The notes: a model not told the origin generated them from the sequence alone. A DNA stretch of 64,000 nucleotides from a virus (IMGVR_UViG_3300037297_000178:1-64000), one strand, 5' to 3'. Shown: positions 1,031 through 60,296, counted from the first letter of the stretch. Made by a program: numbers and translations.

Positions 1031-1579
1031 ATGTGGGCAGCAGTTACGGTAACAGTAGCGAAAGACGGGCGATATTCGGCGAAGCACTTTGACCCGCACA
1101 CAAACAGGCGGGTATATCACGCCGGGCACATCGACACCTCGGGCAGACCGATTGAGTTCCGGCGTCGGCTTGCGCTTGACGTTCACCGCACGATACACAC
1201 AATCGTGGGCCGTCACGAACCACACGAGCTTGAGGGCGAAACGCTCGAGGTGCTCGTGAACGTTAAGGCGCAGGCGTCAAGGCCGTCCCCTTACTGTTTC
1301 AAGGAATGGGACCCGTTCATAAAGGTGATGAACTCAGGGACGTGGTATTCGCCCTGTAACATCGACATCATCGGGGACGGGGACGAGGACGGCATGGGCG
1401 AACCGACGCTGACCGTCGCAGTGAACTCGTTCACACCCGCCTCGTGGTATCTGACACTCAAACACGTCAGGGACGATATGTATGAGGTGAGCGCGACTGA
1501 CGGTTACAGTGGCGTCTTTAGCGCTAAGGACATAGTGAAAAAAATCAGGGAGGTGGCTTATGCCAAGATTATCGAATGA
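1031..1579 (+). CDS. hypothetical protein
   Basis: 182-aa ORF; AAAAAGGAGA upstream of the ATG. Confidence 0.55.
   Translation: MWAAVTVTVAKDGRYSAKHFDPHTNRRVYHAGHIDTSGRPIEFRRRLALDVHRTIHTIVGRHEPHELEGETLEVLVNVKAQASRPSPYCFKEWDPFIKVMNSGTWYSPCNIDIIGDGDEDGMGEPTLTVAVNSFTPASWYLTLKHVRDDMYEVSATDGYSGVFSAKDIVKKIREVAYAKIIE
1518..1527. repeat. TTAGCGCTAA palindrome, copy 1 of 10
   Basis: Inside CDS 1031..1579, read TTT AGC GCT AAG (FSAK). Confidence 0.95.
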
Positions 1580-1820
1580 GCACCCGTTTGTTGAGGAATG
1601 GTTTGGGCACAAGTTCAATCACGACAATCCGGGTGACACAGGACCGGTCGACGTGTGCCTTGACTGCGCGAGGTTAATACAGAGCGAGTGGGCGTCTTCG
1701 CCCGTCTTTGACGGCGAAGCGATAGAAGAGTACGAGCACCCCCCATTCGAGGATACAGACTATGTCTGTGACGAGTGCGGGGCCGAACTCACGTCGGCTG
1801 ACAACTGGACGGAAGAGTGA
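1560..1820 (+). CDS. hypothetical zinc-ribbon protein
   Basis: 86 aa; CLDC ... CDEC cysteine pairs; GGGAGGTGG upstream. Confidence 0.5.
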   Translation: MPRLSNEHPFVEEWFGHKFNHDNPGDTGPVDVCLDCARLIQSEWASSPVFDGEAIEEYEHPPFEDTDYVCDECGAELTSADNWTEE

Positions 1821-2224
1821 TGGACGTAAGACGCCCGTCTGCGAACGAGATACGCGCTATGGCTACGGCCTCCCTGAAAAGGCTCAAGGACGACTGGTGG
1901 AACGAGGGGAAGAGAAGGGGGATACGTGACCTTTTGTTCGGCGTTGTCGAGGATGGGAAATCAGCAGTCACGCTCTTCGGCCTCGAGGTGGTCGGAGGGG
2001 ACGAGTCGCTCGTCGTGTGGAGTGGGGAGGGGGGCTTCCGGGCATACTACAACGGAAACCTCGTTTATAGCGAAGCCCGGAAGCTGTTTGTCCCGGGCGA
2101 TTGGACAAACTACCTCGTGTCGTTCGTGCTTCCGCCTTACCAGCAGGCTGCGCGAGGTGAGCTTCACGACGTGTCGGAGCGCGAAAGACTGATACAGGAG
2201 CTAACGTGCGGAAAGTGCTGCTAG
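1820..2224 (+). CDS. hypothetical protein
   Basis: ORF-track ORF 1817..2224; ATG at 1820 overlaps the upstream TGA. Confidence 0.5.
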   Translation: MDVRRPSANEIRAMATASLKRLKDDWWNEGKRRGIRDLLFGVVEDGKSAVTLFGLEVVGGDESLVVWSGEGGFRAYYNGNLVYSEARKLFVPGDWTNYLVSFVLPPYQQAARGELHDVSERERLIQELTCGKCC

Positions 2225-3053: not shown

Positions 3054-3498
3054 GAGCGCCTCACTAGTTGCAGAACCGCCGTCGCTCAAGTGGACGGTGC
3101 GAAGTAAGGCGAACGGACGCATTATAGCTCACCTCGAGGCGTATGAACTCGATAGCGAACTGACGCGCATCATCGTGACGATAGTCACGCCTGCCCCATT
3201 TTCGACAGCCTTCAAGCCGGTCGAGTTCGTGTGGAAAGAAACTCTCACTCAGGCTCGAGACTTGGCTATCAAAAGGGTGCTTGAAGAAATCGAGGCTGGT
3301 GAAGTGTATGCTGACCTGATAGGTGAGTATGAGGAAAAGTGTCGCGTCGCGGGCGCGGTCTTCAGCCAACTCGACTATTTGAAGAGACGGGCGAACGGCG
3401 ACGACCTTAGCTACCTGTATCAAATGGTCGAATGGCTAAAAGACAGGGTGTGGTTGAAAACGTGGTACAAGGAGAGAGAACATGGTGAGTGGACTTAA
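3040..3498 (+). CDS. hypothetical protein, paralog family A member 1
   Basis: 152 aa; aligns by eye with the next two ORFs (SLVA.PP..W......, F.W, G.VYADLI.E.E.KC). Confidence 0.55.
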   Translation: MEKIESASLVAEPPSLKWTVRSKANGRIIAHLEAYELDSELTRIIVTIVTPAPFSTAFKPVEFVWKETLTQARDLAIKRVLEEIEAGEVYADLIGEYEEKCRVAGAVFSQLDYLKRRANGDDLSYLYQMVEWLKDRVWLKTWYKEREHGEWT

Positions 3499-6895: not shown

Positions 6896-7261
6896 ATGGG
6901 CGCATTTGGACACGGCATAATGGACAACGACGAGGCCCTCGACCTGTGCGGATGGGTCGACGATATGGGCTGCGGTTCGTACATACTTGAAAACATCGAC
7001 GCAGAAGCCTTAGCGCTAAAGGGGCAGGAATTACTTGACGTACTGACTGACAGGAACACGAGTGACCACGAGTGGCTTGCGTTCGGTCAGATTTTCGTAG
7101 AGGCAGGCGTCCCGTTTCCGGGCGTGCTCCGGCAGGTGCTTTTTCACGCTATCGGGCGCGAGATGAAAATGTCGTTCACGTGGCGTGACCCTGCCGAGAG
7201 GGAGCGCGAGCTTACTGAATTTCGAGAGGTGGTCGAGAGACATGGCAAAGATATGGACTGA
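6896..7261 (+). CDS. DUF4259-like protein
   Basis: N-terminus MGAFGHGIMDNDEALD matches the GxWGxGxFDNDxAxD signature of DUF4259. Confidence 0.5.
   Translation: MGAFGHGIMDNDEALDLCGWVDDMGCGSYILENIDAEALALKGQELLDVLTDRNTSDHEWLAFGQIFVEAGVPFPGVLRQVLFHAIGREMKMSFTWRDPAERERELTEFREVVERHGKDMD
7010..7019. repeat. TTAGCGCTAA palindrome, copy 2 of 10
   Basis: Inside CDS 6896..7261, read TTA GCG CTA AAG (LALK). Confidence 0.95.
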
Positions 7262-9566: not shown

Positions 9567-10228
9567 ATCTAATTACGCTAAAGGCGTTCCTCGACTTGGC
9601 GGAAATCCTTGACGAGAGGGGAATGCTCAGCCGACGCGAGGCGGCGTTTGTTCAAGCGCTTGGCGGGAAGAGCCTTCGCTGGTTACTCGAACAACTCGAG
9701 CAACTCGAGAGGGCGCTCCCTCAGCAGGGCCTCGAGGCGATACTATATCGGATGGGCACTGAGGGCTATGAAATCGACGAGCTTCACGAGGGTTCGTGGC
9801 TCACGACCATCCGAAACGGGGACGAAAAATACGAGGGGGTCGGTTTCACGGAGGAAATGTCAATCGCTCGCGCAATGGCTGAGGCCGGTATTGACGTTTC
9901 CTTAGCGCTAAAGAACGAACTGACTGAAGCAATGCGCGAGGAGCGTGAGCTTCCGGGCGGTTTCCATATCGCTGGCTTTTGGGTCGGTCCGATGTTTGAG
10001 GCCGACCCGACCGACGATACGAAGTCGATTATAGTGACAATGGCACACGTCACCATTCGGCGGATTGACGCGACGTATGCAGAGTGGTTTATGTATGCCG
10101 GTTACGGCGAAATCGACGCGCTCCTCGGGGTGCTCGATTGCGTGAGAGGGGAAGCAGAACCATTCGCTACGGGCCTTACCGGCGGTGTATTCAGGAACGG
10201 CGAACCCATTGAGGAGGACGAGACGTGA
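9563..10228 (+). CDS. hypothetical protein
   Basis: ATGA overlap start after AAGGAG. Confidence 0.55.
   Translation: MNLITLKAFLDLAEILDERGMLSRREAAFVQALGGKSLRWLLEQLEQLERALPQQGLEAILYRMGTEGYEIDELHEGSWLTTIRNGDEKYEGVGFTEEMSIARAMAEAGIDVSLALKNELTEAMREERELPGGFHIAGFWVGPMFEADPTDDTKSIIVTMAHVTIRRIDATYAEWFMYAGYGEIDALLGVLDCVRGEAEPFATGLTGGVFRNGEPIEEDET
9902..9911. repeat. TTAGCGCTAA palindrome, copy 3 of 10
   Basis: Inside CDS 9563..10228, read TTA GCG CTA AAG (LALK). Confidence 0.95.
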
Positions 10229-19159: not shown

Positions 19160-19183
19160 CGGGCGGAAGCCCGAATTTTTTTT
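19160..19183 (+). terminator. intrinsic terminator
   Basis: CGGGC-GGAA-GCCCG hairpin followed by AATTTTTTTT directly after the stop of ORF 18860. Confidence 0.6.
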
Positions 19184-19191
19184 AGCGCTAA
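19182..19191. repeat. TTAGCGCTAA palindrome, copy 4 of 10
   Basis: Intergenic; fuses the terminator T-run to the AAGGAGG RBS of ORF 19203. Confidence 0.95.
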
Positions 19192-19202
19192 GGAGGCGTG
19201 AT

Positions 19203-19334
19203 ATGACAAACTTCACAGAGGCGATACTCACCCTGGCGATAGTAGGGGCAGTTTCGTTTGTCGCTTTGTTAATGGCCCTCACGAGGCCCGAGTTTGTTGA
19301 CGGTGTCGTTCGAATAATCGAGGCATGGCGATGA
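19203..19334 (+). CDS. small membrane protein (43 aa)
   Basis: Not in the ORF track. AAGGAGG 6 nt upstream; MTNFTEAILTLAIVGAVSFVALLMAL...; its TGA overlaps the ATG at 19331. Confidence 0.45.
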   Translation: MTNFTEAILTLAIVGAVSFVALLMALTRPEFVDGVVRIIEAWR

Positions 19335-25001: not shown

Positions 25002-26502
25002 GACGACGGTGCTCGCCTTTTTCGCTAATGGCCGGGAACATCGACCAGGGAAGGCGCGAGTCGACCGGCCATTCGGCTAACAACAAGTCAGGCTCGAGGC
25101 CGACCTTCTTTAAGACCCCCTTGACACGCCTGACCCCCCTTCCGACGTTCCTGTCGGCCTGCAAATTACCGAAGGCCCCCTTCGACATGGCCCAAACGAA
25201 CTGCGCCGTGTTCCTGTTCCCGCACTGGAGCGCTATGTCAATAAGCCATGACGCGTAGCGCCTCGACGGCGTGACATAAAGTAAGGATTCTTCAGAGGCC
25301 CGCTTACGACGGCGGGCCTCTTCTCGTAGAGACTTGACTATCATTTCCGACGCGCTGTTGTACTCGTGCGCTGCCCACTGAAGGGGGGTGTGAGGTTGAC
25401 GCGTCAACGGGGTGAATTGAGCCTCGACCGCCGCCCCGGCCTCCTCGAGCTTCTTGTATGTCGGCCAGAACCACTTGAAAAACTCGTTCCAGTCGTTGTC
25501 GTTCTCAGTCGGGACGCCTCGAATGAACATCAGCTTCAGGCGTCTACAACCGCCTGCGAGTGCCTTTTCGATTGCCTCGTCTACGAGTGCCGTCTTTATC
25601 GGCTTCCCGAGTATTTTCCGAAGGCGCTCCGAAATCCCCTCAATACCAAACTCGAGAGTTCGACCCTCGAACTCTGTACCCGTCTCAATCGGCGGGACCT
25701 TCCGCACGAAGTCGTCGACGCGCATGTCCCCGACCCCCCAAAACGAACCGCCGATAAGCTCGCTCACATAACTGATACCCCCGAAATTTGTCGAGGTGAG
25801 CATCACCTCAGGATACATTTGTATTGTTTCAAACACCTCTTCTTTCGGACGCTCCCTGTAAGGGACCTGCCACGCTATCGAGCAGAAGTGACACGTCCCC
25901 CGACAGCCGTGTGTCAGTATCAGTTCGTCGGACGACTCAGCCTTGTGAAGGATGGGCGGGAACGTGTCACATACGGCAGGAACAATGGGCCGGTCTTCGC
26001 CCAAAATGTCTTTAATGAAAAAGCCCGTGTCGTCATACACCACCTTCCGACGATGAGGCACGTAAGCCCCAGGCAGTTCGGAGAGGGCGTCAATGCGAGC
26101 CTGACGCCCCTTAGCGCTAAGGGCCTCGAGCATACTGCGAGCGAAATCGTCCCCGTCCCCGACACATATAACGTCAACGAACGGAGCGACGGGTTCGGGG
26201 TTGAAGCACGCCCCGCCCCCTACAATAACAATCGGGTGTGCGTCGGTCCGGTCAGAGGCGAGGTATGGTATTCGCGCCTTCTTTAGCGAGTCGAATATGG
26301 CCTGAAAGTGGCGAGCTGCAAGGAACGACATCATAAAGACCTCGTCCCCCAGGGCAGAAACAATTTCGCTCCGATGCGTCAGGACGGCTGCCCCCTCGAG
26401 GAGTTCGTGTATAATCAATGCCCCCGGGTTTATCCGCCGCGAGTTTGGTATTCGCGTGTTGTAGTAGCAAAGCTGGCCTATTTTTTCCCGAGACGTGTCC
26501 AT
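24895..26502 (-). CDS. B12-binding-domain radical SAM protein
   Basis: CRGTCHFC (CxxxCxxC); upstream IVIVGGGACFNPEPVAPFVDVICVGDGDD B12-like domain; GGGAG RBS. Confidence 0.75.
   Translation of the reverse strand: MDTSREKIGQLCYYNTRIPNSRRINPGALIIHELLEGAAVLTHRSEIVSALGDEVFMMSFLAARHFQAIFDSLKKARIPYLASDRTDAHPIVIVGGGACFNPEPVAPFVDVICVGDGDDFARSMLEALSAKGRQARIDALSELPGAYVPHRRKVVYDDTGFFIKDILGEDRPIVPAVCDTFPPILHKAESSDELILTHGCRGTCHFCSIAWQVPYRERPKEEVFETIQMYPEVMLTSTNFGGISYVSELIGGSFWGVGDMRVDDFVRKVPPIETGTEFEGRTLEFGIEGISERLRKILGKPIKTALVDEAIEKALAGGCRRLKLMFIRGVPTENDNDWNEFFKWFWPTYKKLEEAGAAVEAQFTPLTRQPHTPLQWAAHEYNSASEMIVKSLREEARRRKRASEESLLYVTPSRRYASWLIDIALQCGNRNTAQFVWAMSKGAFGNLQADRNVGRGVRRVKGVLKKVGLEPDLLLAEWPVDSRLPWSMFPAISEKGEHRRLTAYHNVSRLIQREKEAQASRGGLRTGLRRKSEPL
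26111..26120. repeat. TTAGCGCTAA palindrome, copy 5 of 10
   Basis: Inside the radical SAM CDS (-), read CTT AGC GCT AAG (LSAK). Confidence 0.95.
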
Positions 26503-29070: not shown

Positions 29071-31280
29071 GCGACAACATAAAAGACCAGGAAAAGTATA
29101 CAGTACAGGAACACGTCAAGGACGAGCCGGTCGACGAGGAGACTTCCGACATCTTCTCCGTTCTCGTGAGCGCTCGCTCCGACATACCAGCGTGGTGGTC
29201 ACAGGAGCGGGATGAGAAGCTACTCGACTTTGCTCGCGGGAACGACTATATTCAGTTAGCACTCACGGCCCTCGAGGAGTTCGCAACTACAACTGAGTGG
29301 CGCTTCGTGGCGCGAGACTCCACGATACGGTCTCACGTCGAACAGGCGGCAAGCCTGACGCGAGAGGTGAAAGCGAACGCAGACTTCGGGAAGGGGTACG
29401 CGACCTGGGTCAGCAGGTTCGTACAGTCATACACAGGACAGGACAACGGCTCGTTCACGGAGGTCATAGGACGGGGGCGGAAGAGCGGACCGTTAATCGG
29501 GACGCCGATTAACGTCGCCTCCCTCGACAGCCGCCGTTGTACAAGAACGTCAAACCCCATATACCCCGTCGTGTATATGGACGACGGGGGTTCGAGGCGC
29601 AAACTTCACTACACGCGCGTGATGTGCCCGGCACAAATGCCGTCGTCAACCCTCGAGATGAACGGCGTCGGTTACTGTGCCGTGTCTCGTTGCCTGAATA
29701 CGGCGCAGGTGCTCGGGGACATACTCACGTACAAACAGGAAAAAATGGGGTCAAGGCCGATGCGAGCTATCCTCGTTGCGGAAGGTATCGACTTGCGCGA
29801 GCTTCAGGACACGCTCGCTATGGACGACTCCATCATGGACGCAGCCGGGTTCACGCGCTATTCGCGCGTACCGGCGATAGCATCCAAACACAAGAAAATT
29901 ACCATAACACTTGTACCCCTGTCTCAACTCCCTGACGGCTTCAACGAGGAGGTGAGCACCTCGTTGGGCGTTTACCTCATTTCGGGCGTGTATGGGCTTG
30001 ATGCACGCGAGATATGGCCCGCGACGTCGTCCGGCGCGACTAAGGCCGACGCAGAGACGCAACATATGAAGGCCCGAAAAAAAGGGAAAGGCCAGCTATT
30101 GCGCGTCATCAAGGACGAGTTCGAGCGCCGTTTCCTTCCGGCTTACCTTATGATGGTGTTCGACGCACAGGACGACGAACAGGACGCAGTCAGGGCCGAA
30201 CTTCAAAAGCTGAGGGCCGAACGCCGCGAGATTGACCTTCAACCGGACGACGAGGGACAGTCTTCAATCACCATTCGCGTGTCGCGCGAACTGATGCTTG
30301 CGGATGGTGACATCACGCAGTCTCAGTTCGACGAGATGGAATTGCGAGACGGGCGACTCCCTGACGGGTCGGATGTACTACTGCTGTTCCGCTCGCCTGA
30401 GTTCGAGCCATTCCTGGACCTCGCAGTCCCGTTCCAGACCGACCCGCTTGACGTTGAGGCGAACGACCCGGTACTGATACAGGCTTTAGCGCTAAGGAAA
30501 CTCAACGAGGTCGAGCAGGTTGTTATGAATGGGAAGACGGGCGGTGTACGACAGCGGGCGCGTCAGGCTGCGGCAGCATTGAACGCGCTTCTTGACCTGT
30601 ACGAACCGCCCCCCGTAAACCCGGTAGTTGCCGAAGAAGAGGCTGAGGCCGAAGAAGGGGAGTCCGTCGAAGGACCTGAGGTGGTTGAAGAAGTAGAGGA
30701 AAAGACCCTCACCTTTTACGAGCACTCGATACGCTCGCACGCTCGACGCCTCTGGACGGGCGCGATGGACGAGTACGAGTTTGTCGACAGCCTCACGAGC
30801 ATCATAATCACGCAGTATCGGAAAGCGTGGGCTGAAGGCATGGCCCAGGCGGGAATCGGGTTTGAAGCTATAAACGCCGAAGAGCGGGCGAAGCTCGACG
30901 AGCTTACGAACGCAGCGACAGACCGGGTAATTGACCTTGCGATTTTCATACTCGAGCAGAAGGAACAGGGGCGAGTGTTCGCCGACCTGTCGTACAGGTT
31001 ACGGTTGTGGACTCGTCAGTATGACACGGTCCGGCTTCAGGCCCTTGTCATGGCCGGACAGGACATCAAGCTCGAGTGGGTGCTCGGAGCGAGCGAGAAG
31101 CATTGCCCCTCGTGTATGAAGTTGGGCGGGAAGGTGAAGCGGGCTTCGGTGTGGGCTGCGGCAGGTGTGTATCCGAAGTCCCCGCCAAACCCGAAGCTCG
31201 AGTGTGAGGGATGGGGTGATTGTACGCTCGTCCCGACCGACAAGCCGTGCTCACGAGGCCCATTACCTAATTTACCATAG
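29067..31280 (+). CDS. portal protein fused to a MuF/SPP1 gp7-like head-morphogenesis domain
   Basis: 737 aa immediately after TerL. C-terminus HCPSCMKLGGKV ... PPNPKLECEGWGDCTLVP fits the Phage_Mu_F pattern. TTGA overlap start. Confidence 0.65.
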   Translation: MSDNIKDQEKYTVQEHVKDEPVDEETSDIFSVLVSARSDIPAWWSQERDEKLLDFARGNDYIQLALTALEEFATTTEWRFVARDSTIRSHVEQAASLTREVKANADFGKGYATWVSRFVQSYTGQDNGSFTEVIGRGRKSGPLIGTPINVASLDSRRCTRTSNPIYPVVYMDDGGSRRKLHYTRVMCPAQMPSSTLEMNGVGYCAVSRCLNTAQVLGDILTYKQEKMGSRPMRAILVAEGIDLRELQDTLAMDDSIMDAAGFTRYSRVPAIASKHKKITITLVPLSQLPDGFNEEVSTSLGVYLISGVYGLDAREIWPATSSGATKADAETQHMKARKKGKGQLLRVIKDEFERRFLPAYLMMVFDAQDDEQDAVRAELQKLRAERREIDLQPDDEGQSSITIRVSRELMLADGDITQSQFDEMELRDGRLPDGSDVLLLFRSPEFEPFLDLAVPFQTDPLDVEANDPVLIQALALRKLNEVEQVVMNGKTGGVRQRARQAAAALNALLDLYEPPPVNPVVAEEEAEAEEGESVEGPEVVEEVEEKTLTFYEHSIRSHARRLWTGAMDEYEFVDSLTSIIITQYRKAWAEGMAQAGIGFEAINAEERAKLDELTNAATDRVIDLAIFILEQKEQGRVFADLSYRLRLWTRQYDTVRLQALVMAGQDIKLEWVLGASEKHCPSCMKLGGKVKRASVWAAAGVYPKSPPNPKLECEGWGDCTLVPTDKPCSRGPLPNLP
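30486..30495. repeat. TTAGCGCTAA palindrome, copy 6 of 10
   Basis: Inside the portal CDS, read TTA GCG CTA AGG (LALR). Confidence 0.95.
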
Positions 31281-36297: not shown

Positions 36298-37215
36298 ATG
36301 AAAACTTACAAGTATAAGGAAATGACGCGTTTTCAGGTCGGGCAGGCCGTCGCGTGGGCGAAGTTCCTCGAGGACGGCGTTTTCTCGATAGAAACGCCAG
36401 CCGGTAAGAGTCGGGTGTTCTACCCAGGTCGCCTCACAAAACCACAAGAGAACGCGCTGTACAGCCGCTTCATCATCGGCTCAATGGTCAAGTTCGCGCT
36501 CTCACAATGGAAGGAAATTTATAAGACGCGCCTCGTGGGCGTCCCCATAATGACTGAGGGAGGCGGGTACGCTTTCTTTCACGGGATACTTGACATATTA
36601 CACAACGAATACGACGTGTGGCTCGCGTACATGTGGGCACGCCGCGAGCGTATTCGAACACGGAACGGAGACGAAGCCTTCGACCCGTTCAAGGCTGCGC
36701 CTGTGGCGGGAAACCTCGAAATCTTTAGCGCTAAGGCCGACGACGTGTCGGTGTTCCTGTTCGACATAATAGCGACGGGAACAACCGGCGTCGCTGTTAT
36801 ATCGTACCTCAAAGAACACCTGGGACCGCGTCTCAAGCACATCGTTTACGGGAGTCCGTGTGGCTCGATGGTCGGAGCGCGGGCCATACGCGAGGCGGCA
36901 GGCGACACCCCCTGTATGTGCCTGTTGTCAGAAGGGGCCTTCGGCCTGTACGAGAACGGGACGTACCTTTCGCTTCAGCTTGAGGGGGCGTACACGAGTG
37001 AGGCTAACCTCGAAATGTCCCGGACGGTGTATCCTGACCCGCGCTTCTGCCACATCGGGGCCGGGGGACGGGCGGCTGCAAGTTATCGGCTGTATCGGGA
37101 CGAGCTTGAAGAAGAAAAACTTGACCTGGGCCTAAAAGGCCCTGCGGTCAAGTTACATTCACCAAAGGAATGGGAAACGGCCTGGGAAACGGGCGTTTTC
37201 GCCTGTTACCGTTGA
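36298..37215 (+). CDS. uracil phosphoribosyltransferase-like (PRTase fold) protein
   Basis: VGVPIMTEGGG (cf. VPILRAGLG), VFLFDIIATGTTG (cf. PRPP motif DPMLATGGS), VISYLKEHLG, HIGAGGRAA (cf. PGLGDAGDR). Confidence 0.45.
   Translation: MKTYKYKEMTRFQVGQAVAWAKFLEDGVFSIETPAGKSRVFYPGRLTKPQENALYSRFIIGSMVKFALSQWKEIYKTRLVGVPIMTEGGGYAFFHGILDILHNEYDVWLAYMWARRERIRTRNGDEAFDPFKAAPVAGNLEIFSAKADDVSVFLFDIIATGTTGVAVISYLKEHLGPRLKHIVYGSPCGSMVGARAIREAAGDTPCMCLLSEGAFGLYENGTYLSLQLEGAYTSEANLEMSRTVYPDPRFCHIGAGGRAAASYRLYRDELEEEKLDLGLKGPAVKLHSPKEWETAWETGVFACYR
36725..36734. repeat. TTAGCGCTAA palindrome, copy 7 of 10
   Basis: Inside the PRTase-like CDS, read TTT AGC GCT AAG (FSAK). Confidence 0.95.
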
Positions 37216-39705: not shown

Positions 39706-42700
39706 TTACGCTTCCCTGTAAGGTGTCATGTAGCGCGAGACTTTTTCGGCCTGCACACTGTATGACTGCTGAAGCTGTGACACCCACACCTCGTAGGTCG
39801 AATCCCATCTCATCCCCAAAAACCACACGCGCTGATTAGCGTTAGCCTGAAGTTTAGCCGGTCCGGTTCGGGGTTCGAGCGGTATTTCAATGCTGTTGTC
39901 GATGTAAAATTCGTTTTGTGGATAGATTGTTCGTGAGCTTGCAACGAGCCTGTTTGATGGGTCGCTTATTGAGTCGATGTCGAAATACTCGGCGTAGTAC
40001 GTGTCGTCGGCCTTACTCAACACGTCGACAAAGCATTCGTCGACGTCGAATATACACAGGTCGTACAGTCTAAGAGCTGGTGTGCCGTTTGCAGCGTCCC
40101 CCCTAACATCAAGTGTGAGATTGTTCACGCGCGTGTTTTTGGGGATGGCAATCGGTAATATGTCAATCACGCCGAGGTCAATCACAAGAGCGACGCTTTC
40201 AGCGACACCGGCTACCTGAGTGATATTAGCGACTTTTGAGTCGATGTATGCACTCCCCGTATTTACTCTTAGCCACACCTTTAACCAGTTCGCGTCGGAC
40301 ACGCTTTCGGCATATACTCTCAAGAAGGCCCTGTATCGCCCGAGGTAGTCGGTTTGAACGCCCGGTATGAAGCGAGTTGTCACAAGTGTCGCCTCACCTC
40401 CGGCAGAAGGTTGCCAATAGGCATACTGACCGGCGGGAACAGAAGGTGACGCGACAAACGACATGTCGCCTGTGTTCCCGTAAATGGGGTACACGCCCGG
40501 TCGGTTGTTTTCCTGTGCAAGGTTAATGAACGGACTGAAAACCTCTCCTCGTTCTGTCGAACGTGACGAGATAATCATTCGGTGTGGATAATAGGTATTA
40601 TCCACAACGCCGTCAGGGTACACTTTGAAGTGCGTATAACAGGGAATGTCACCTGGCACATCCTCATCGTCAACCTCGACATGTGCCCAGGTGACAGTAT
40701 AAATGTCACTGTCAATCTCAGGGACCGTGTACAAGGCATTGACGGTTGTGACACGAAGCCTGACCCACCATCCGGTGACGCCGTTCACCGCCGTTGTTGC
40801 AAAATCGGACGGCGGGATGAAAAAGTGCCCTTTGTGCTCGCGTATCAGCATATCGACGGTGTTCGGCGGGTTTGCGAATACGTTGTCACGCGCTGTCGAG
40901 TTGTAGCCCGATAACGCCGCCCACGCCGCCCCGTTCCAGTATTCGCGCGTGAAGAACAAACCCCTTGACGAGGTACACAGAGGGAGTATGAAATTATTGA
41001 ACGCCCCGTCGTCACGCAGGACGGAGTCCTCAATACATATGTAAATTGCATCATTTACTTGAGGGGGGAGTCCCGTTATAAGAGGTTGAGGCGTTGAACT
41101 TATCGGGTATAGCGATGTGTACGTTCCTGCGCTCGTGTCGTAAAAGTAGGCGTGTGTTATCTGTTTGTTTGTCTCTGAGTTCGTAACGAAGACCTTCTCA
41201 GTCGTTTCGCGGTCAATTGACCGCCTCGTGGTCGGGAATTGATACAAGTTCCCGTCTGACCCGTAAATGTACAGGAATCCGGTTGTGCCAGGGAAATAGT
41301 ACAATTCTCTAGGCTTGACGGTTTCTTTTGTCATAATGAGCGCGAGTTTAGTCAGTTGGTCTTCTTCGGCCTGTTCTGTTAGCCAATAGGCCGTTGTGTC
41401 AATGTATGACGCATTGTCGCGCTCCGTCCAACGTAGACCGTTCACATACAACTTCTTTGCATCTGTGTCGTACTCGAGCCAATTGAGCCATATGTAATAG
41501 TTCTGAGCACACGAGTGTATTTTATCGGACGAGAAGACACCATTTTCTACGTTGAGCTTATACACGCCTGAGTTCACCGAATAGCCTGCGGTGTACATAT
41601 AGTCTCCAATTTCCAGGAACGGTCCTGAGAACGAATCGTTTCCGAAAAGACCGCTCGGGAGCCACGTTGTACCATCTTCCGAATAGATTATTTCGGGTGT
41701 TGTAGTGTTGTAAGCTGTGTAGCAATACAAGCACCCTTGCGTTGAGTGATAGCCGAGTACACCGTAAATGTTACTCGCTGATGTCTGAAATACAAGCGCC
41801 CACGCACCGCCGTTTGACCTATATATGCCGTGCGTTCCTGTCACCTCACCATATACGTACATGTACGTCCCATCATTTGTCATTAGCGGGAAGTAGTTCG
41901 CGCTGTTGGCTATCGGGGTTGCAGAGAAAAGGGCGAAGTTCGCGCCGCCGTCGTTCGAGCGGAAGACACCGTTTGCGGTGAAGGCGTACAGGTATCCCCC
42001 GAATATTGTCCATCCCCTCACGTGTGCCGTTGGAGGCGTCGCGCTCACGACCCAGGCCGTGCCGTTGACGCTGTATCTGACGGTCGGGACACCCGAATCG
42101 GATACGAACAGGGTATCGCTTGCACAGCCACATTGACCGGCAGGAACGTAGAAACAGTGATTCCCCGTCGTAACGGCTGTCCAGTCCCGAATCAGGGCTT
42201 CTTGTCTGTTTGACAGGTTAAGCACCTCTCCTGTCCCAGGAGGGGAAGAAAACCATTCGGTGTGCTCAATCTTGAAGTCGAGGTCGTCGAATACGCTCGG
42301 TTTTTGAGCAAACGGCTGGTCGAACGGGCCTCCGACCTGCGGACTGTTCCACAGCCCAACGAGCGCGTAAGACGGCACAGACTCACATTTCGCCTGCTTG
42401 ATGATGTACACCGGGTTGGGGTTGACGCCGGTCCAATAGTCGATAGCCTTCATTAAAAGCGTCAACAAGCGACGGTACTCACGTATGAGGTCAAGGGGGG
42501 CAGTGTCACGTACTGCGAGCGACAGTCGGTCGGTTATACTCTCGAAGCGTGTGTGAACGATGGTTCGGCCTGGGGCAGTCGGAGACTCCTGAAAAATGCC
42601 GTCAATCGGAAGCACTGACGGTTTCCAGTCTTTCAATAGGAAACCAGCCTTTAGCGCTAAGAGGTTTACCTCGTCCGTGCCGTCTGTTATCTTGAATATG

Positions 42701-57163: not shown

Positions 57164-58120
57164 TCAGTATTTGTCGACAAACCATTCGAAGGTCGACTTC
57201 AGACCTTCGAGAAAGTCGACATGGAACGTGTATCCGGCGTCCTGTAGCTTCTCGTTTGACACGTGGAAGTATTCGGGGTCTTCCGGGTTCCTGGGCGCGT
57301 GATAGAAACCGTCTATCGGGCGGTCTGCAAGCTCGAGAATCCTTAGCGCTAATTCAAGCACGCTCACCTGTATCCCCGACACGACGTTGTACACCTCACC
57401 TATGGTGTTATCGTTATTCGAGCAGAAGATGTTCGCGCCCACGACGTCGTCGACGTGCGTGAACGAGCGAATCTGATTCCCGTCTCCGTGAACCTCGAGG
57501 TCAAGCCCCTGTATGGCCCTCCGGCAGAAGATACCACAAACCATGCCGTATTTGTCAACGGCGTTCTGATACGGACCGAAAACGTGGAAGTAGCGAAGAA
57601 TTGTCGGCTTTATGTCGTGCTCGCGGGCGTACATCGCCACGTATCTCTCGCCTGCGAGTTTCCCGACGCCGTAGTGTGATATGGGGTTGAGGGGGTGTTC
57701 CTCTGTTGTCGGGTGTTCGACGGTGCGGCCATAAACCGACCCTGTCGAGGCATGTATGATACGCTTTGTGTTGAACTTCTTCATTACCTGAAGAAGGTGA
57801 AGCGTGCCCCACGCGTTCACCTCGAGGTCACGGCGCGGGTCGAGAAGCGAGACGGTCTTTTTCGAGGCTGCGTTGTGGAAAACGCAGTCGAAACCGCCAG
57901 CCTCGACGAACACGCTTTCAAGGTCGGGTGTCGTTACGTCACAGCATACCTCGTGGAATCTGTGGTTACGGCGTGCCCCGTCGAGGTTGTCGTAGTCGCC
58001 TGTCGTGTAGTCGTCTACCCCCCACACCTCGCAGTTCCCCTGCCCTAAAAGCTGATTGACAAGGTTTGTCCCTATAAACCCGGCTGAGCCGGTCACTAAA
58101 ATCTTGTACATATCTTTCAC
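57164..58120 (-). CDS. NAD-dependent sugar-nucleotide epimerase/dehydratase (SDR family)
   Basis: ILVTGSAGFIGTNLV (GxxGxxG), YGVGKLAGE (YxxxK). Confidence 0.8.
   Translation of the reverse strand: MKDMYKILVTGSAGFIGTNLVNQLLGQGNCEVWGVDDYTTGDYDNLDGARRNHRFHEVCCDVTTPDLESVFVEAGGFDCVFHNAASKKTVSLLDPRRDLEVNAWGTLHLLQVMKKFNTKRIIHASTGSVYGRTVEHPTTEEHPLNPISHYGVGKLAGERYVAMYAREHDIKPTILRYFHVFGPYQNAVDKYGMVCGIFCRRAIQGLDLEVHGDGNQIRSFTHVDDVVGANIFCSNNDNTIGEVYNVVSGIQVSVLELALRILELADRPIDGFYHAPRNPEDPEYFHVSNEKLQDAGYTFHVDFLEGLKSTFEWFVDKY
57343..57352. repeat. TTAGCGCTAA palindrome, copy 9 of 10
   Basis: Inside the epimerase CDS (-), read TTA GCG CTA AGG (LALR). Confidence 0.95.
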
Positions 58121-58758
58121 CTTCTATGCCCTGTTAAGCTGATTAACGGGCTGTCGAACGGGTCGCCAGGGATGACTCCCCACTGATAGCCGGTTTTCCA
58201 TCGACAATAATCGAGAGCGAGCTGGTCGCGGTGCGAGCCACGCTGTACCTCGTACCACCACCTTCGCTCGAACTTCCGAAGCGCCTCCGAATGGTGTTTG
58301 ACTGCGAGCGTGTTCGCAGACAGGCCGAACTTTTTCGGAAGCCCCTCTTGATAGTAGCGCCTCATTTGTGCTATCACGGCGTCGTTTGGCGCTTTTTTTA
58401 GTTTCATAACGGCTTTCGCCTCCTCGTACACGCAGTCACGGTGCGGGTGTTTGAACAACGCCATGTCGTGCTCGAGGATGTAACGCAAGAGATAGTCGGG
58501 GTCGAGGAGTAGCACAGCGTTCCCCCCATGCATGATTGAATACTCATAAGACGGGAACTTGTCACAGGCCGTTATGAACCATTCCCGCGACTCGTATAAG
58601 GGGTCGCTTACCTGAATTATCCAGTCCTGCCACCCGTCGACGTTGCGCGGACGGTCTGTCACACATATGAAGTCCCAGGTCGGGTTTGGCACACGAACAG
58701 ACCTGAGTACATCATATTCGCCGAATAGAATTGAGAAGACTACCTTCTTGTTATGCAC
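58117..58758 (-). CDS. DUF616/TOD1-like putative glycosyltransferase
   Basis: SILFGEYDVL ... WDFICVTDRP ... pattern; GTG start. Confidence 0.4.
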   Translation of the reverse strand: MHNKKVVFSILFGEYDVLRSVRVPNPTWDFICVTDRPRNVDGWQDWIIQVSDPLYESREWFITACDKFPSYEYSIMHGGNAVLLLDPDYLLRYILEHDMALFKHPHRDCVYEEAKAVMKLKKAPNDAVIAQMRRYYQEGLPKKFGLSANTLAVKHHSEALRKFERRWWYEVQRGSHRDQLALDYCRWKTGYQWGVIPGDPFDSPLISLTGHRR

Positions 58759-60296
58759 TTCGCAGTCTCCATGAGTGTCTCAACGTCGTTCGTCCCGGCC
58801 TCGTTGAGCACGTTGCGCCAGAACGCCCACCTCCGTTTCCCGACGCTGATGTAGTCGGCCTCAAGCTCGCATACCGTGATGTGATGGAAGCCTGCAAGCA
58901 TTAGCGCGATAGCCTCCGTGAACACGCCCCCAAATGGCACAATGGCCCGAAGGGGGGCGTAGGCATCGGGCGGTTTCAACAGCGACGCACACCATAGCGC
59001 GAGTCGTAACGGCTTAATCGTCGGGTGCTTGTTTCGCCCACAGCCTGCGTCTCGTTCCCAACGCGGGGCCTTCGGCGTATAGTATACAGGGTCAGGGAAC
59101 ACGTCGAGAAAAAACCTGAGGGCCGAACCGGTGTCCTTCAGGCCCCCGGCATTGTGACTGAGTTCTGTCCCGAACGAGTACACGCGCCCGTCCCCTGACC
59201 CTACCCCGACCGTCAGGCCCCCACTGCTCGTCGTTATGCCCGACATTTCGGCAAGTGCCCGACCGGGGCAGTCAGGGTGACACGCCTCCTCTGTACACGC
59301 CGGATGGTGAAGCACCATGAGGTTCGCGGGCCAGCGACTACGCCCGCGCCTGTTTCGTATCCGACACCCCTCAATGTTCACCGTCCCTGCCCCCGTCGTC
59401 AGGATGTTTGCGAGCGGGCGCTCCGTTGTCCACTCTTTGAAGTCCGACTCGTCAACCGTCGCTATGAGCCTGGGCGCGTCGGTGTTTGTCGGGTCGACAA
59501 GTAGTACGAGCGTGTCGTTCTTGAGGCCCTTCCGAAGGGCCTGCCTCTTCACCGTCACCACGTTGTACTCGACATAGGCGGGCGGAATTGTTACTCCCTT
59601 CTGTTTCATTTTCAGGCGGAAGGCGGGCGTGTTCCTTACCTGACGGGGGGTGTGCCAGTGGTCCCACCCCGTCACCTCGTGTATCGTCTTACTCGATACC
59701 TTCCCGTATGGTCTTTGAGCGAATATCATAGGCTCGAGGGAGGGCTTTAACGCCTGAAGCCCATAGCGATGACCGGTCCAGGTTACACCCAACTGACCCT
59801 CTGGTACAGGCTCTTTGTATTCGCCCTTCCCCGCCCAGGCATGGTATCCCTGTTTCCCGCCTGCGTGATATTGTACATGCCCGTCTGCGTAAACTTTCGT
59901 GCGCTTCTTGTGCTGTATCACACCCCCCGCTTTCTCAGCAGGTATGCCGACCCTTGTCGCCTTCGGAAGGCCCGTCCCGTAGGCCCAACCGAACAGGAAC
60001 GGGTGAATCATAAAGCCTGCGTCCTCAATCGCTTTCGCCTGAAGGTGAAGGCCACGAGGCGACGCGAACGTCAAGAGGAACCCGCCAGGGAGGAGAGCAT
60101 CGTACATCGCTGCCCACGCCTTAGCGCTAAAGGCGACACCGCTCGCGTCCCAGGCGTGCCCCATAAACTTCATTTCATAGGGCGCGTCGCAGAACACAAC
60201 GTGAGCCTGTTCGCCCTCATGCTCGTACTCGTGTATATCACAGTGGTGAATTTCGAGGACCGTGTCGGGGGGCGTAACAAGAGGGAGTTGTCTCAT
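58740..60296 (-). CDS. DNA methyltransferase (beta-class, N6A/N4C type) with large insertion
   Basis: VVFCDAPY (DPPY-like motif IV) near the N-terminus; KHPTIKP near the C-terminus. Confidence 0.65.
   Translation of the reverse strand: MRQLPLVTPPDTVLEIHHCDIHEYEHEGEQAHVVFCDAPYEMKFMGHAWDASGVAFSAKAWAAMYDALLPGGFLLTFASPRGLHLQAKAIEDAGFMIHPFLFGWAYGTGLPKATRVGIPAEKAGGVIQHKKRTKVYADGHVQYHAGGKQGYHAWAGKGEYKEPVPEGQLGVTWTGHRYGLQALKPSLEPMIFAQRPYGKVSSKTIHEVTGWDHWHTPRQVRNTPAFRLKMKQKGVTIPPAYVEYNVVTVKRQALRKGLKNDTLVLLVDPTNTDAPRLIATVDESDFKEWTTERPLANILTTGAGTVNIEGCRIRNRRGRSRWPANLMVLHHPACTEEACHPDCPGRALAEMSGITTSSGGLTVGVGSGDGRVYSFGTELSHNAGGLKDTGSALRFFLDVFPDPVYYTPKAPRWERDAGCGRNKHPTIKPLRLALWCASLLKPPDAYAPLRAIVPFGGVFTEAIALMLAGFHHITVCELEADYISVGKRRWAFWRNVLNEAGTNDVETLMETAKCITRR
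60121..60130. repeat. TTAGCGCTAA palindrome, copy 10 of 10
   Basis: Inside the second DNA methyltransferase CDS (-), read TTT AGC GCT AAG (FSAK). Confidence 0.95.

What the first reader, a model, noticed from the sequence alone, without database searches (positions are those of the whole stretch)
1518..60130. Ten copies of the 10-bp palindrome TTAGCGCTAA dispersed through unrelated genes
I found exact copies at 1518, 7010, 9902, 19182, 26111, 30486, 36725, 42651, 57343 and 60121. A given 10-mer is expected about 0.06 times in 64 kb at uniform base composition. The flanks extend the symmetry to C-Y-TTAGCGCTAA-R-G in most copies. Nine copies lie inside unrelated coding sequences on both strands: portal, tail protein, radical SAM, epimerase, DNA MTase, PRTase-like and three early ORFs. 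They are read in two different frames, as L-A-L-K/R or F/L-S-A-K, so conservation is at the DNA level and not protein homology. The tenth copy bridges a terminator T-run and an RBS. Spacing is fairly even, between about 2.8 and 14.7 kb. Phages usually avoid palindromes, so a strongly enriched one suggests a binding site for a dimeric phage or host protein. Candidate roles are genome condensation, partition-like or packaging functions, a global regulator, or a modification or nicking target. The core AGCGCT could also be a methyltransferase target.
Basis: seen in the sequence. Interest (0 to 1): 0.75.

Follow-up and report, generated by a model that had tools for sequence, protein, structure and literature searches.

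The report
Dispersed 14-bp palindrome in uncultured phage
An uncultured ~94-kb phage that has purged almost every short palindrome from its DNA nevertheless keeps at least 14 perfect, fairly evenly spaced copies of one 14-bp palindrome, mostly inside unrelated genes. This most likely marks recognition sites for a still unidentified symmetric DNA-binding protein or enzyme.

Summary
TTAGCGCTAA occurs 10 times in the window, against 0.04 expected from dinucleotide shuffles. Codon-preserving shuffles give about 0.05 new copies. Contigs identical to the window's ends add 4 more copies, making 14 in 78.9 kb.

The conserved unit is 14 bp, C-Y-TTAGCGCTAA-R-G, with no homology beyond it. There are no excess one-mismatch or half-site copies, and only the zero-spacer inverted arrangement occurs. 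Eleven copies lie in unrelated ORFs in the two stop-free frames, at poorly conserved protein positions, and six use both of the rarest Leu codons. The three intergenic copies are each fused to the same ribosome-binding cassette. Spacing is more regular than random (minimum gap P=0.003).

The background makes this stand out. GATC occurs 0 times and 25 of 64 hexamer palindromes are absent.

The same core recurs in three unrelated viral contig families: dispersed, in promoter spacers, and as a pair upstream of a small-terminase gene. Distant relatives of this phage lack it.

No ParB/KorB-, LacI- or repressor-type protein was found, so the reader of the motif is unknown. My best reading is a set of sites for a symmetric dimeric DNA-binding protein (about 0.45). 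The rivals are an enzyme target, an RNA-level element, a terminase site, and a by-product of biased DNA repair.

The parts
1516..1529 (.). Palindrome copy CTTTAGCGCTAAGG, inside ORF 1031-1579 (+), read as F-S-A-K.
7008..7021 (.). Palindrome copy CCTTAGCGCTAAAG, inside ORF 6896-7261 (+), read as L-A-L-K.
9900..9913 (.). Palindrome copy CCTTAGCGCTAAAG, inside ORF 9557-10228 (+), read as L-A-L-K.
19180..19193 (.). Intergenic palindrome copy TTTTAGCGCTAAGG, lying between a terminator and a ribosome-binding site.
19160..19181 (+). Intrinsic-terminator-like hairpin CGGGCGGAAGCCCG plus a T-run, ending the one-gene unit 18781-19181 (perfect sigma-70 promoter, DUF4325 gene).
19192..19205 (+). GGAGGCGTGATATG: ribosome-binding site, spacer and start codon fused to the palindrome. 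The same cassette follows the two other intergenic copies, which lie outside the window at 71195 and 73261 on the - strand.
26109..26122 (.). Palindrome copy CCTTAGCGCTAAGG (perfect 14-mer), inside the radical SAM gene 24895-26502 (-), read as L-S-A-K.
30484..30497 (.). Palindrome copy CTTTAGCGCTAAGG, inside the putative portal gene 29067-31280 (+), read as L-A-L-R, in a segment that varies or is deleted in relatives.
36723..36736 (.). Palindrome copy CTTTAGCGCTAAGG, inside ORF 36274-37215 (+), read as F-S-A-K.
42649..42662 (.). Palindrome copy CTTTAGCGCTAAGA, 54 nt into the 1002-aa tail-region gene 39706-42714 (-), read as L-A-L-K.
57341..57354 (.). Palindrome copy CCTTAGCGCTAATT, inside the NAD-dependent epimerase gene 57164-58120 (-), read as L-A-L-R, in a helix that varies among solved homologues.
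60119..60132 (.). Palindrome copy CCTTAGCGCTAAAG, inside the DNA methyltransferase gene 58740-60296 (-), read as F-S-A-K.

Best explanation
The 14-bp palindrome C-Y-TTAGC|GCTAA-R-G is a high-specificity recognition site on duplex DNA for a symmetric, homodimeric sequence-specific protein. That protein is most likely phage-encoded and belongs to a family not recognisable by current profiles.

The sites are kept by selection at the nucleotide level all over the genome, about one per 5.6 kb and rarely close together.

Inferred mechanism: the protein occupies all sites. Three sites sit where occupancy would control expression of the gene immediately downstream. One of these is at about +6 to +15 of a promoter, and all three are immediately 5' of the ribosome-binding site. 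The 11 intragenic sites would act as genome-wide anchoring, loading or roadblock points. This resembles the 12 KorB operators spread over plasmid RK2, or centromere, nucleoid-occlusion and macrodomain sites on chromosomes.

What is shown: the enrichment, the symmetry, the DNA-level selection, the positions and the regular spacing.
For: - Enrichment is far beyond the dinucleotide and codon-preserving nulls. There are 14 copies in 78.9 kb.
- The whole palindrome is the selected unit. Outside the full motif, TTAGCGC/GCGCTAA occurs 6 times against 8.7 expected, and TTAGCGCT occurs 0 times against 1.7 expected. Only the inverted, zero-spacer arrangement of TTAGC is enriched. One-mismatch copies are not in excess.
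- Both flanks are conserved symmetrically.
- The sites use the rarest Leu codons and fall in variable protein segments.
- The genome otherwise purges palindromes. GATC is 0 against 159 expected, and 25 of 64 hexamer palindromes are absent against 74 of 4032 non-palindromic hexamers. Retention of this one therefore implies function.
- Three of three intergenic copies sit at regulatory positions and share a 24-nt cassette.
- In an unrelated viral contig family, TAGCGCTA sits in the -35/-10 spacer of two consensus promoters and just upstream of a -10-like hexamer at a third gene start, which is the classical operator position. In another family, two exact CCTTAGCGCTAAGG copies lie 37 bp apart in a non-coding, repeat-rich control region.
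- A LacI-family factor (CceR) is known to bind GTTAGCGCTAAC (PMC4323418). This shows the core is a workable dimer operator.
Against: - No candidate binding protein was found. Pfam and PHROG scans of essentially all ORFs in 79 kb found no ParB/KorB, LacI, Cro/CI-type or ribbon-helix-helix regulator.
- The only sequence-specific DNA-binding domains found are a NUMOD4+HTH_38 remnant of a homing endonuclease, a single Myb-like repeat in an orphan protein, and the small terminase.
- Perfect identity of all 14 cores with no weaker sites is more typical of enzymes than of most transcription-factor regulons.
- 11 of 14 sites are intragenic with no consistent relation to promoters.
- No integrase or partition genes were seen that would give a silencing or segregation system a purpose.
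- No protein is shared with the other motif-bearing contigs.
- About 15 kb of the genome could not be read.
Confidence: 0.45

Rival explanations
1. Enzyme target. The palindrome is the substrate site of a symmetric phage enzyme. The enzyme could be a site-specific nickase or endonuclease making programmed interruptions or breaks, for example to start recombination-dependent replication. It could also be a long-site DNA-modifying enzyme.
For: - All-or-none conservation of 10 bp with no degenerate copies looks enzyme-like.
- The copy number and dispersion match the localized nick sites of phage tf: 14 sites of TACT/RTGMC in a 46-kb genome that also has two convergent transcription arms. T5's major-nick consensus R/GCGCRGG shares A/GCGC with this motif (PMC3517423).
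- Spacing is regular.
- The phage encodes RecA, a PD-(D/E)XK nuclease and a UvrD-like helicase, a DUF559/Vsr-like nuclease and two DNA methyltransferases.
- It also encodes an orphan protein with a Myb-like DNA-binding repeat.
Against: - Known nick sites are asymmetric and confined to one strand. A palindrome would be cut on both strands, 4 bp apart, which amounts to a double-strand break.
- No enzyme is linked to the site.
- Both methyltransferases have the N6A/N4C-type fold. Being a methylation target gives no reason for enrichment.
- The phosphoesterase-like reading of the Myb protein has no profile or structural support (model pLDDT 37).
Confidence: 0.17
2. RNA-level element. Because the motif is a palindrome, every transcript carries 5'-UUAGCGCUAARG-3'. 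An RNA-binding translational repressor or a ribonuclease, or a small hairpin that masks UAAGG, would act on it. The main targets would be the three ribosome-binding sites fused to the motif.
For: - Three of three intergenic copies abut the ribosome-binding site with a 0-1 nt offset and share GGAGGCGTKATATG.
- Read in the mRNA sense, the 3' flank is R-G in 14 of 14 copies, while the 5' flank C-Y is complete in 9 of 14.
- The copy at 73261 lies in a strongly structured leader (z = -4.1) that carries an anti-Shine-Dalgarno stretch.
Against: - The 14-nt hairpin is weak (-2.5 kcal/mol, z = -1.6).
- The -1/+1 positions show no pairing covariation: 9 of 14 can pair.
- The flank asymmetry is not significant once codon constraints are considered.
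- Eleven copies lie deep inside ORFs, where a translational operator has no obvious role.
- Strict two-fold symmetry is unnecessary for single-strand recognition.
Confidence: 0.12
3. By-product of biased DNA repair, as proposed for cyanobacterial highly iterated palindromes (HIP1). A methyltransferase together with a Vsr-like mismatch endonuclease would convert near-cognate sequences into the palindrome, which would accumulate without having a function of its own.
For: - The HIP model links iterated palindromes to methyltransferases and a methylation-dependent mismatch repair system (PMC4390886).
- The phage has two methyltransferases and a DUF559/Vsr-like nuclease.
- The unrelated phage with dispersed TAGCGCTA also carries a NUMOD3 + PD-(D/E)XK nuclease. 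There the iterated unit is an 8-mer with loose flanks, which is HIP-like.
Against: - Here the unit is 14 bp and there is no cloud of one-off variants.
- The density is 178 per Mb, against 500-2500 per Mb for HIPs.
- Spacing is regular.
- Both methyltransferases are of the N6A/N4C type, not C5, so there is no T:G repair logic.
- Intergenic copies sit at precise regulatory positions.
Confidence: 0.08
4. Small-terminase recognition sites. The palindromes would be dispersed pac-like sites, so that packaging could start at many places on the concatemer.
For: - In the L225/L226/L230 contigs, two exact CCTTAGCGCTAAGG copies lie about 650 bp upstream of an Sf6-type small-terminase gene.
- The window phage also has an Sf6-type small terminase at 27143-27601.
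- Regular spacing would suit multi-site initiation.
Against: - The two small terminases show no detectable similarity to each other.
- From my own knowledge, pac and cosB sites are single clusters next to the terminase genes. Here the nearest copy is 1 kb away, inside another gene, and the copies are spread over the whole genome.
- The L226 region could equally be a divergent promoter or a replication origin.
Confidence: 0.07
5. Host-factor site. The palindrome would be bound by a host global regulator or chromosome-organising protein that the phage exploits. This would explain why unrelated phages share the core.
For: - The same 8-10-bp core is enriched in an unrelated phage with which no protein is shared in the 27 kb read.
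- Distant relatives of the window phage lack the motif, as expected if the motif tracks the host.
- A host-type LacI-family box, GTTAGCGCTAAC, exists.
Against: - The two phages have opposite GATC content (0 copies here against strong enrichment there), which suggests different hosts.
- None of the 120 genome stretches returned has the 8-mer iterated: 4 extra copies against 13.7 expected.
- The flanks differ from the CceR box at its critical G/C positions.
Confidence: 0.08

Closest known systems
KorB operators (OB) of IncP plasmids such as RK2, a ParB-family global repressor and partition protein
   Same: About a dozen near-identical palindromes are spread over a 60-kb mobile genome, roughly one per 5 kb. 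Some lie at promoters and some far from any promoter or inside genes. The half-site is almost identical: TTTAGC in OB and YTTAGC here. The OB sequence TTTAGC(G/C)GCTAAA is from my own knowledge.
   Different: OB has a central extra base (13 bp). Here the half-sites abut, and TTAGCNGCTAA occurs 0 times. No ParB/KorB-family protein and no partition genes were found in 79 kb.
Localized nick sites of phages tf, T5 and phiKMV
   Same: A short exact consensus occurs 4-14 times across the genome, including inside genes, and its function is unknown. Phage tf has 14 sites and two convergent transcription arms. The T5 consensus R/GCGCRGG shares A/GCGC with this motif (PMC3517423).
   Different: Those motifs are asymmetric and all lie on one strand. 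This one is a perfect palindrome. Physical nicks have not been tested here.
Stoperators of cluster A mycobacteriophages (L5, Bxb1)
   Same: Tens of repressor-binding sites are dispersed through a phage genome and act away from promoters as transcription roadblocks (my own knowledge).
   Different: Stoperators are asymmetric 13-mers, oriented with transcription and mostly in short intergenic gaps, in temperate phages that have an immunity repressor. Here the sites are palindromic, 11 of 14 are intragenic, and no repressor or integrase was seen.
Chromosomal organiser sites: parS, Noc-binding sites, SlmA-binding sites and matS
   Same: These are 12-16-bp highly conserved palindromes, dispersed and often intragenic, read by dimeric proteins (my own knowledge).
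   Different: The sequences differ. Those sites serve cellular chromosomes. No homologous reader protein is present in the phage.
Highly iterated palindromes (HIP1 and variants) of cyanobacteria
   Same: A single palindrome is strongly over-represented, mostly inside genes, and the phenomenon is linked to methyltransferases (PMC4390886).
   Different: HIPs are at most 8 bp, much denser, and accompanied by many near-cognate variants. Here the unit is 14 bp, sparse, evenly spaced and has no variants.
LacI-family operator of CceR (Rhodobacter), GTTAGCGCTAAC
   Same: It contains the identical 10-bp core TTAGCGCTAA with a central CG step (PMC4323418).
   Different: CceR needs G and C at the positions that are Y and R here. 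[quoted passage not shown] There is no LacI-family protein in the phage.

Membership tests
KorB-OB / ParB-type centromere-operator system | The site is a 13-bp palindrome, TTTAGC(G/C)GCTAAA, with a central base. | tested here: not met
   TTAGCNGCTAA and TTAGCNNGCTAA each occur 0 times. Only the zero-spacer form is present.
KorB-OB / ParB-type centromere-operator system | The same element encodes a ParB/KorB-family protein. | tested here: inconclusive
   No ParBc or KorB hit in Pfam or PHROG scans of ORFs across 79 kb. About 15 kb of the 94-kb contig could not be read.
KorB-OB / ParB-type centromere-operator system | Near-identical sites are dispersed over the whole element, some at promoters and some intragenic. 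| tested here: met
   14 perfect cores in 78.9 kb. One lies at about +6 to +15 of a promoter matching 10 of 12 consensus positions, and 11 are intragenic.
Stoperators (L5-type) | The site is asymmetric and has a fixed orientation relative to transcription. | tested here: not met
   The site is a perfect palindrome, and its flanks show no significant sense bias.
Stoperators (L5-type) | Sites lie mainly in short intergenic regions of a temperate phage that has an immunity repressor. | tested here: not met
   Only 3 of 14 sites are intergenic. No repressor or integrase was found.
Localized nick sites (T5, phiKMV, tf) | A short exact consensus is repeated about 4-14 times through the genome. | tested here: met
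   comparison with PMC3517423.
Localized nick sites (T5, phiKMV, tf) | All sites are on one strand, because the motif is asymmetric. | tested here: not met
   The motif is its own reverse complement.
Localized nick sites (T5, phiKMV, tf) | Virion DNA carries ligase-repairable nicks at the sites. | not testable with these tools
   This needs virion DNA or analysis of raw read ends.
Highly iterated palindromes (HIP) | A palindrome of 8 bp or less occurs at about 500-2500 per Mb, together with many one-off variants. | tested here: not met
   The unit is 14 bp at 178 per Mb. There are 2 one-mismatch variants in 64 kb, which is about chance (PMC4390886).
Highly iterated palindromes (HIP) | A cognate methyltransferase recognises the palindrome or its core. 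| not testable with these tools
   Two methyltransferases of the N6A/N4C type are present. Their specificity is unknown.
MITE or other longer repeated element | Homology extends well beyond the core. | tested here: not met
   Nothing is conserved from -15 to -4 of the half-site profile, and position -3 leans only weakly to T/C. Only the three intergenic copies share an extra 14 nt, the ribosome-binding site to the ATG.
Chi-like recombination hotspot | An asymmetric 5-8-mer is enriched on its own. | tested here: not met
   Sub-words outside the full palindrome occur at or below expectation.
LacI-family (CceR-type) operator | The box is YGTT-N6-AACR, lies upstream of regulated genes, and a LacI-family protein is present. 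| tested here: not met
   The position that is G/C in the CceR box is Y/R here. There is no LacI hit.
pac/cosB small-terminase binding sites | The sites form a single cluster next to or inside the terminase genes. | tested here: not met
   The copies are spread over 79 kb. The nearest (26111) lies 1 kb upstream of the small-terminase gene, inside the radical SAM gene.

The most novel reading that the evidence does not exclude
The palindromes are landmarks of an undescribed genome-wide phage system. An orphan-family symmetric protein would act at evenly spaced, exact intragenic sites. It could be a nuclease making programmed breaks that seed recombination-dependent replication or packaging, or a sliding or bridging organiser. 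The same TAGCGCTA-core recognition module would circulate among unrelated mobile elements.
Probability: 0.2. Interest if true: 0.8.

Novelty: new variant of a known kind. Interest (0 to 1): 0.6.

Why it matters
Dispersed, exact, intragenic protein-recognition sites are well understood for a few plasmids (KorB), temperate mycobacteriophages (stoperators) and chromosomes (parS, Noc-, SlmA- and MatP-binding sites). In phages, the comparable exact motifs, the nick sites, are still unexplained after decades.

Here such a motif sits in a genome whose other palindromes have been almost completely purged. Selection for it is therefore unusually clear, and the 14 or more sites are a ready-made probe. 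A 14-bp duplex could pull out its reader from an entirely uncharacterised phage lineage in which the early genes have almost no database matches.

The same core is used as an apparent operator, or is dispersed, in three unrelated viral contig families. This hints at a recurrent but undescribed DNA-recognition specificity among mobile elements.

Tried and rejected
- **Chance or codon artefact.** Rejected by dinucleotide shuffles and two codon-preserving shuffles.
- **MITE or longer repeat.** Rejected: no flank homology beyond the 14-mer.
- **Two overlapping inverted copies of an asymmetric signal (Chi-like).** Rejected: isolated 7-8-mers are not enriched.
- **Flexible half-site spacing.** Rejected.
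- **Conservation in relatives.** The nearest relatives by major capsid protein are only 45-51% identical. Four of their loci lack the motif. There is no DNA match in the phage collection. The capsid has no match in the phage or plasmid collections.
- **Motif scans of IMG/VR.** The first 14-mer scan gave only single hits in every contig.
- **Metagenome scan with an 18-mer.** It returned only unrelated single hits.
Pfam and PHROG scans found nothing suitable.
No proteins are shared.
- **Myb-like protein as candidate.** It has no homologues. The single-sequence model is unusable at pLDDT 37. There is no Pfam support for the phosphoesterase motifs I thought I saw by eye.
- **RNA hairpin.** It is weak and not significant. 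Rfam finds only a tRNA.

Full report
**1. The observation**

TTAGCGCTAA occurs exactly ten times in the window, at the coordinates given. Dinucleotide-preserving shuffles give 0.04 copies on average.

I built two codon-preserving nulls from 90 called ORFs covering 91% of the window. One shuffles synonymous codons within each gene; the other permutes codons within each gene. Both give a mean of about 1.0 and a maximum of 4. The mean of 1 is the intergenic copy, which is not shuffled.

All ten TAGCGCTA 8-mers lie inside the 10-mer, and only two one-mismatch variants exist.

**2. What the genome is**

The window has no DNA match among 50,697 phage records. Its large terminase is at most 45% identical to those of Streptomyces and Actinoplanes phages. 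Its major capsid protein has no match among isolated phages or plasmids. The best capsid match in 5.8 billion protein clusters is 49-51% identical.

Exact-protein look-ups place the window on a 94,318-bp JGI contig (sample 3300042731) and on Logan contigs of SRR12668987. The Logan contigs are 100% identical to the window where they overlap it. They extend the readable sequence to 78,868 bp.

The genome has two convergent arms.
- The + arm carries about 28 kb of small ORFs, almost none with a database match. The terminase, putative portal and capsid genes follow.
- The - arm starts with replication and recombination genes: UvrD-like helicase, RecA, primase and DnaB.
- It continues through a large glycosyltransferase, epimerase and methyltransferase cluster into the tail genes.

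**3. Anatomy of the motif**

The extended sequence holds 14 copies, at window coordinates -671, 1518, 7010, 9902, 19182, 26111, 30486, 36725, 42651, 57343, 60121, 66376, 71195 and 73261.

- **Half-site profile.** Treating each site as two half-sites, TTAGC is invariant (28 of 28). Position -1 is C or T in 27 of 28, and position -2 is C in 23 of 28. Nothing further out is conserved apart from a weak T/C preference at -3. The unit is therefore the 14-bp palindrome C-Y-TTAGC|GCTAA-R-G and not a longer repeat.
- **Unit of selection.** Outside the full motif, its sub-words occur at or below expectation. TTAGCGC/GCGCTAA occurs 6 times against 8.7 expected, and TTAGCGCT occurs 0 times against 1.7 expected.
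- **Half-site geometry.** Among all spacings and orientations of TTAGC half-sites, only the inverted, zero-spacer form is enriched.
- **Coding copies.** Eleven copies lie in eleven different ORFs, at relative positions from 0.02 to 0.92. Six read TTA-GCG-CTA-ARG and five read YTT-AGC-GCT-AAG. The third frame would give TAG and TAA stops.
- **Codon usage.** TTA and CTA are the two rarest Leu codons, 105 and 113 of 1,712.
- **Protein context.** In the putative portal, the motif-encoded residues ALALRK align with IVLEKI in one relative and are deleted in another. In the epimerase, LALR aligns with LFKL and LHSA in solved homologues.

Selection is therefore on the DNA, placed where the proteins tolerate it.

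**4. The three intergenic copies**

All three are directly fused to the same cassette, TTAGCGCTAA(A)GGAGGCGTKATATG. That 14-nt stretch from ribosome-binding site to ATG occurs only once more in 79 kb within one mismatch.

- The copy at 19182 follows an intrinsic terminator that closes a one-gene unit driven by a perfect sigma-70 promoter.
- The copy at 71195 starts 13 nt after the -10 hexamer of a TTGACG-17-TAGAAT promoter, at about +6 to +15.
- The copy at 73261 lies about 70 nt into a highly structured leader (z = -4.1) that contains an anti-Shine-Dalgarno stretch.

**5. Distribution**

The gaps range from 2,066 to 14,692 bp. Among 100,000 random placements, a minimum gap this large occurs with P = 0.003, and a coefficient of variation this low (0.58) occurs with P = 0.03. 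The copies avoid each other rather than clustering as ordinary operators do.

**6. Background composition**

This genome avoids palindromes to an extreme degree.
- GATC occurs 0 times. A Markov model expects 159, and codon shuffles give 129-147.
- 25 of the 64 hexamer palindromes are absent from 78.9 kb. Examples are GCGCGC (45 expected), AAGCTT (35), GGCGCC (31) and CGGCCG (28). Only 74 of 4,032 non-palindromic hexamers are absent.
- AGCGCT itself is not avoided: 43 observed against 46 expected.

Against this background, a 14-bp palindrome kept 14 times is clearly selected for.

**7. Elsewhere**

Four loci from the nearest relatives (capsid 44-49% identical) contain no copy and no equivalent palindrome. 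They also have normal GATC counts. One of them has its own dispersed, non-palindromic 8-mer, ATACTCGG, 14 times in 19 kb in both orientations.

Scans of IMG/VR with three 14-mers returned mostly single, background hits. Across 142 such loci, extra TAGCGCTA copies number 9 against 17.8 expected.

Three unrelated families stand out.
- **(i) IMGVR_UViG_3300009529_000016** (46-48% G+C, rich in GATC). It has 14 TAGCGCTA copies in 27.3 kb, mostly intragenic and with looser flanks. A relative with a 52%-identical capsid has none.
- **(ii) L248/L255/L262.** TAGCGCTA sits in the -35/-10 spacer of two TTGACA promoters and just upstream of a -10-like hexamer at a third gene start. In all three the start codon follows about 6 nt after the -10-like hexamer. 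Two of the genes encode IS1-like transposase parts.
- **(iii) L225/L226/L230.** Two exact CCTTAGCGCTAAGG copies lie 37 bp apart in a repeat-rich non-coding region of about 1 kb. The region lies about 650 bp upstream of an Sf6-type small-terminase gene.

None of these shares a detectable protein with the window phage.

The 8-mer is not iterated in any of the 120 returned stretches. A metagenome scan with the 18-mer that includes the ribosome-binding site found only unrelated singles.

**8. Who reads the motif?**

Pfam and PHROG scans of essentially all ORFs found no ParB/KorB, LacI, Cro/CI-type or ribbon-helix-helix regulator, and no partition or integration genes. The DNA-related proteins found are listed below.

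| Window coordinates | Protein |
|---|---|
| 11121-12227 | DNA methyltransferase (PF01555, N6A/N4C type) |
| 58740-60296 | DNA methyltransferase (phrog_67) |
| 23325-23843 | DUF559/Vsr-like nuclease |
| 24059-24448 | NUMOD4 + HTH_38 remnant of a homing endonuclease |
| 27143-27601 | Sf6-type small terminase |
| 54458-55567 | Orphan protein with one Myb-like repeat |

The Myb-like protein has no homologue in the database. Its single-sequence model is unusable (pLDDT 37). The phosphoesterase motifs I thought I saw in its C-terminal part have no profile support. The reader of the motif remains unidentified, and about 15 kb of the genome could not be read.

**9. Interpretation**

The motif has strict two-fold symmetry, fixed geometry and symmetric flanks, and only the whole site is selected. 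These features point to recognition of duplex DNA by a symmetric dimer.

The closest functional analogue is KorB with its operators on RK2. From my own knowledge, there are 12 copies of TTTAGC(G/C)GCTAAA over 60 kb, some at promoters and some intragenic. The half-site is nearly the same, but the spacing differs by one base and no ParB-family protein is present. The phage may work like KorB, but it is not a member of that family.

Stoperators, parS, Noc-binding, SlmA-binding and matS sites are looser analogues.

The perfect conservation and the copy number also recall the unexplained nick sites of phages tf and T5. Phage tf has 14 sites, and the T5 consensus is R/GCGCRGG (PMC3517423). Those sites are asymmetric and on one strand only.

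An RNA-level role is suggested only by the three copies fused to ribosome-binding sites. It is weakened by the weak hairpin and by the eleven copies deep inside ORFs.

A HIP-like origin by biased repair (PMC4390886) fits the second phage better than this one.

I give the binding-site reading about 0.45 and enzyme target 0.17. I give an RNA element 0.12, a host-factor site 0.08, a HIP-like by-product 0.08 and terminase sites 0.07.

**10. Verdict**

The finding is real, statistically robust and wider than reported. Its function cannot be settled in silico because the lineage has no close relatives and its regulators have no recognisable families.

I classify it as a new variant of a known kind: dispersed, exact recognition palindromes on a mobile genome. 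Interest is moderately high.

Noticed in passing
whole window (and the 78.9-kb extended sequence): Palindrome avoidance is extreme. GATC occurs 0 times against about 130-160 expected. 25 of 64 hexamer palindromes are absent, including GCGCGC, AAGCTT, GGCGCC, CGGCCG, GGGCCC, CGTACG, GCCGGC, GAGCTC, GAATTC and CCATGG. Only 74 of 4032 non-palindromic hexamers are absent. Four distant relatives have normal GATC counts. This suggests a host with a very large restriction arsenal.
   Followed up: partly
window 6466, 8527, 8628, 16671, 18781, 22866 (+); outside the window at -5027, -4449, -1134 (+) and 72975 (-): Ten perfect 12-of-12 sigma-70 consensus promoters (TTGACA, 16-18 nt, TATAAT), plus several 11-of-12 ones. 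Most are in front of the small ORFs of unknown function on the + arm.
   Followed up: partly
window 16720-17229 and 21696-22604: A CCA-adding-enzyme-like protein appears split into two genes 4.5 kb apart. One carries the PolyA_pol head domain. The other carries the PolyA_pol RNA-binding domain plus an HD domain. A tRNA-Lys(UUU) gene lies at 8454-8527.
   Followed up: no
window 54458-55567 (-): An orphan protein with a eukaryote-like single Myb/SANT repeat (best PDB match Myb21, E = 5e-9), embedded in the glycosyltransferase cluster. It has no homologue in 5.8 billion protein clusters. Its C-terminal 260 residues have no family hit.
   Followed up: partly
window 49099-49764 (-): A protein with a response-regulator receiver domain is encoded among the tail-region genes.
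   Followed up: no
window 51168-62153 (-): A large sugar-modification cluster. It includes an 851-aa protein with one GT1-family and two GT2-family glycosyltransferase domains, a protein with a weak helix-hairpin-helix match (HHH_5, E = 0.003, below Pfam's cut-off), DUF1360, and Methyltransf_24. It also includes an epimerase, a TOD1/MUCI70-like glycosyltransferase, a further GT2 glycosyltransferase and a TSCPD protein. Similar clusters occur in the distant relatives. In one relative the helix-hairpin-helix domain is fused to the large glycosyltransferase.
   Followed up: no
window 23325-24448 (+): Two homing-endonuclease-like genes lie in tandem upstream of the packaging genes. One is a DUF559/Vsr-like nuclease with basic N-terminal repeats. 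The other has NUMOD4 plus HTH_38 and no nuclease domain.
   Followed up: no
window 3040-4325 and 19325-21283 (+): Tandem paralogues: three adjacent ORFs (3040-3498, 3482-3886, 3873-4325), and the pair 19325-20191 / 20402-21283, which are 34% identical. The pair is the first sizeable coding unit after the motif copy at 19182.
   Followed up: no
outside the window, L082:60-160 (window coordinates about 73240-73340, - strand): A structured 5' leader of about 100 nt (-48 kcal/mol, z = -4.1). It has a G7/C8 hairpin and an anti-Shine-Dalgarno stretch, CACCTCCTT, that pairs with the ribosome-binding site fused to the motif. It precedes the first gene of the - arm and lies downstream of a TTGACA-17-TATGCT promoter.
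   Followed up: partly
L077:480-18812 (relative; capsid 48% identical): This relative has its own dispersed exact 8-mer, ATACTCGG, 14 times in 19 kb. Six copies are on the + strand and eight on the - strand, all in a region of + strand genes. The cause is unknown.
   Followed up: partly
L204/L212 (IMGVR_UViG_3300009529_000016), L032:11275-11700: This unrelated phage has TAGCGCTA 14 times in 27 kb. It also has a tight cluster of eight TGTACGTACA copies. Five lie inside a gene for a ribbon-helix-helix-like protein, where they encode VRTK repeats. Three lie in that gene's upstream region, 27-28 bp apart. A NUMOD3 + PD-(D/E)XK endonuclease gene follows a Mu F-like gene. Both products end in the same peptide, CRTEPIVVFK.
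   Followed up: partly
L226:11300-11900; L248:1400-3760: CCTTAGCGCTAAGG occurs twice, 37 bp apart, in a repeat-rich non-coding region upstream of an Sf6-type small-terminase gene. In L248, TAGCGCTA lies in the -35/-10 spacer of two promoters and just upstream of a -10-like hexamer at a third gene start, in front of apparently leaderless genes. Two of those genes encode IS1-like transposase parts.
   Followed up: partly
window 24895-27167 (-): A radical SAM gene (Radical_SAM_N2 + Radical_SAM, 535 aa) and the ORF after it are the only - strand genes in my ORF calls on the + arm. They sit just before the terminase genes.
   Followed up: no
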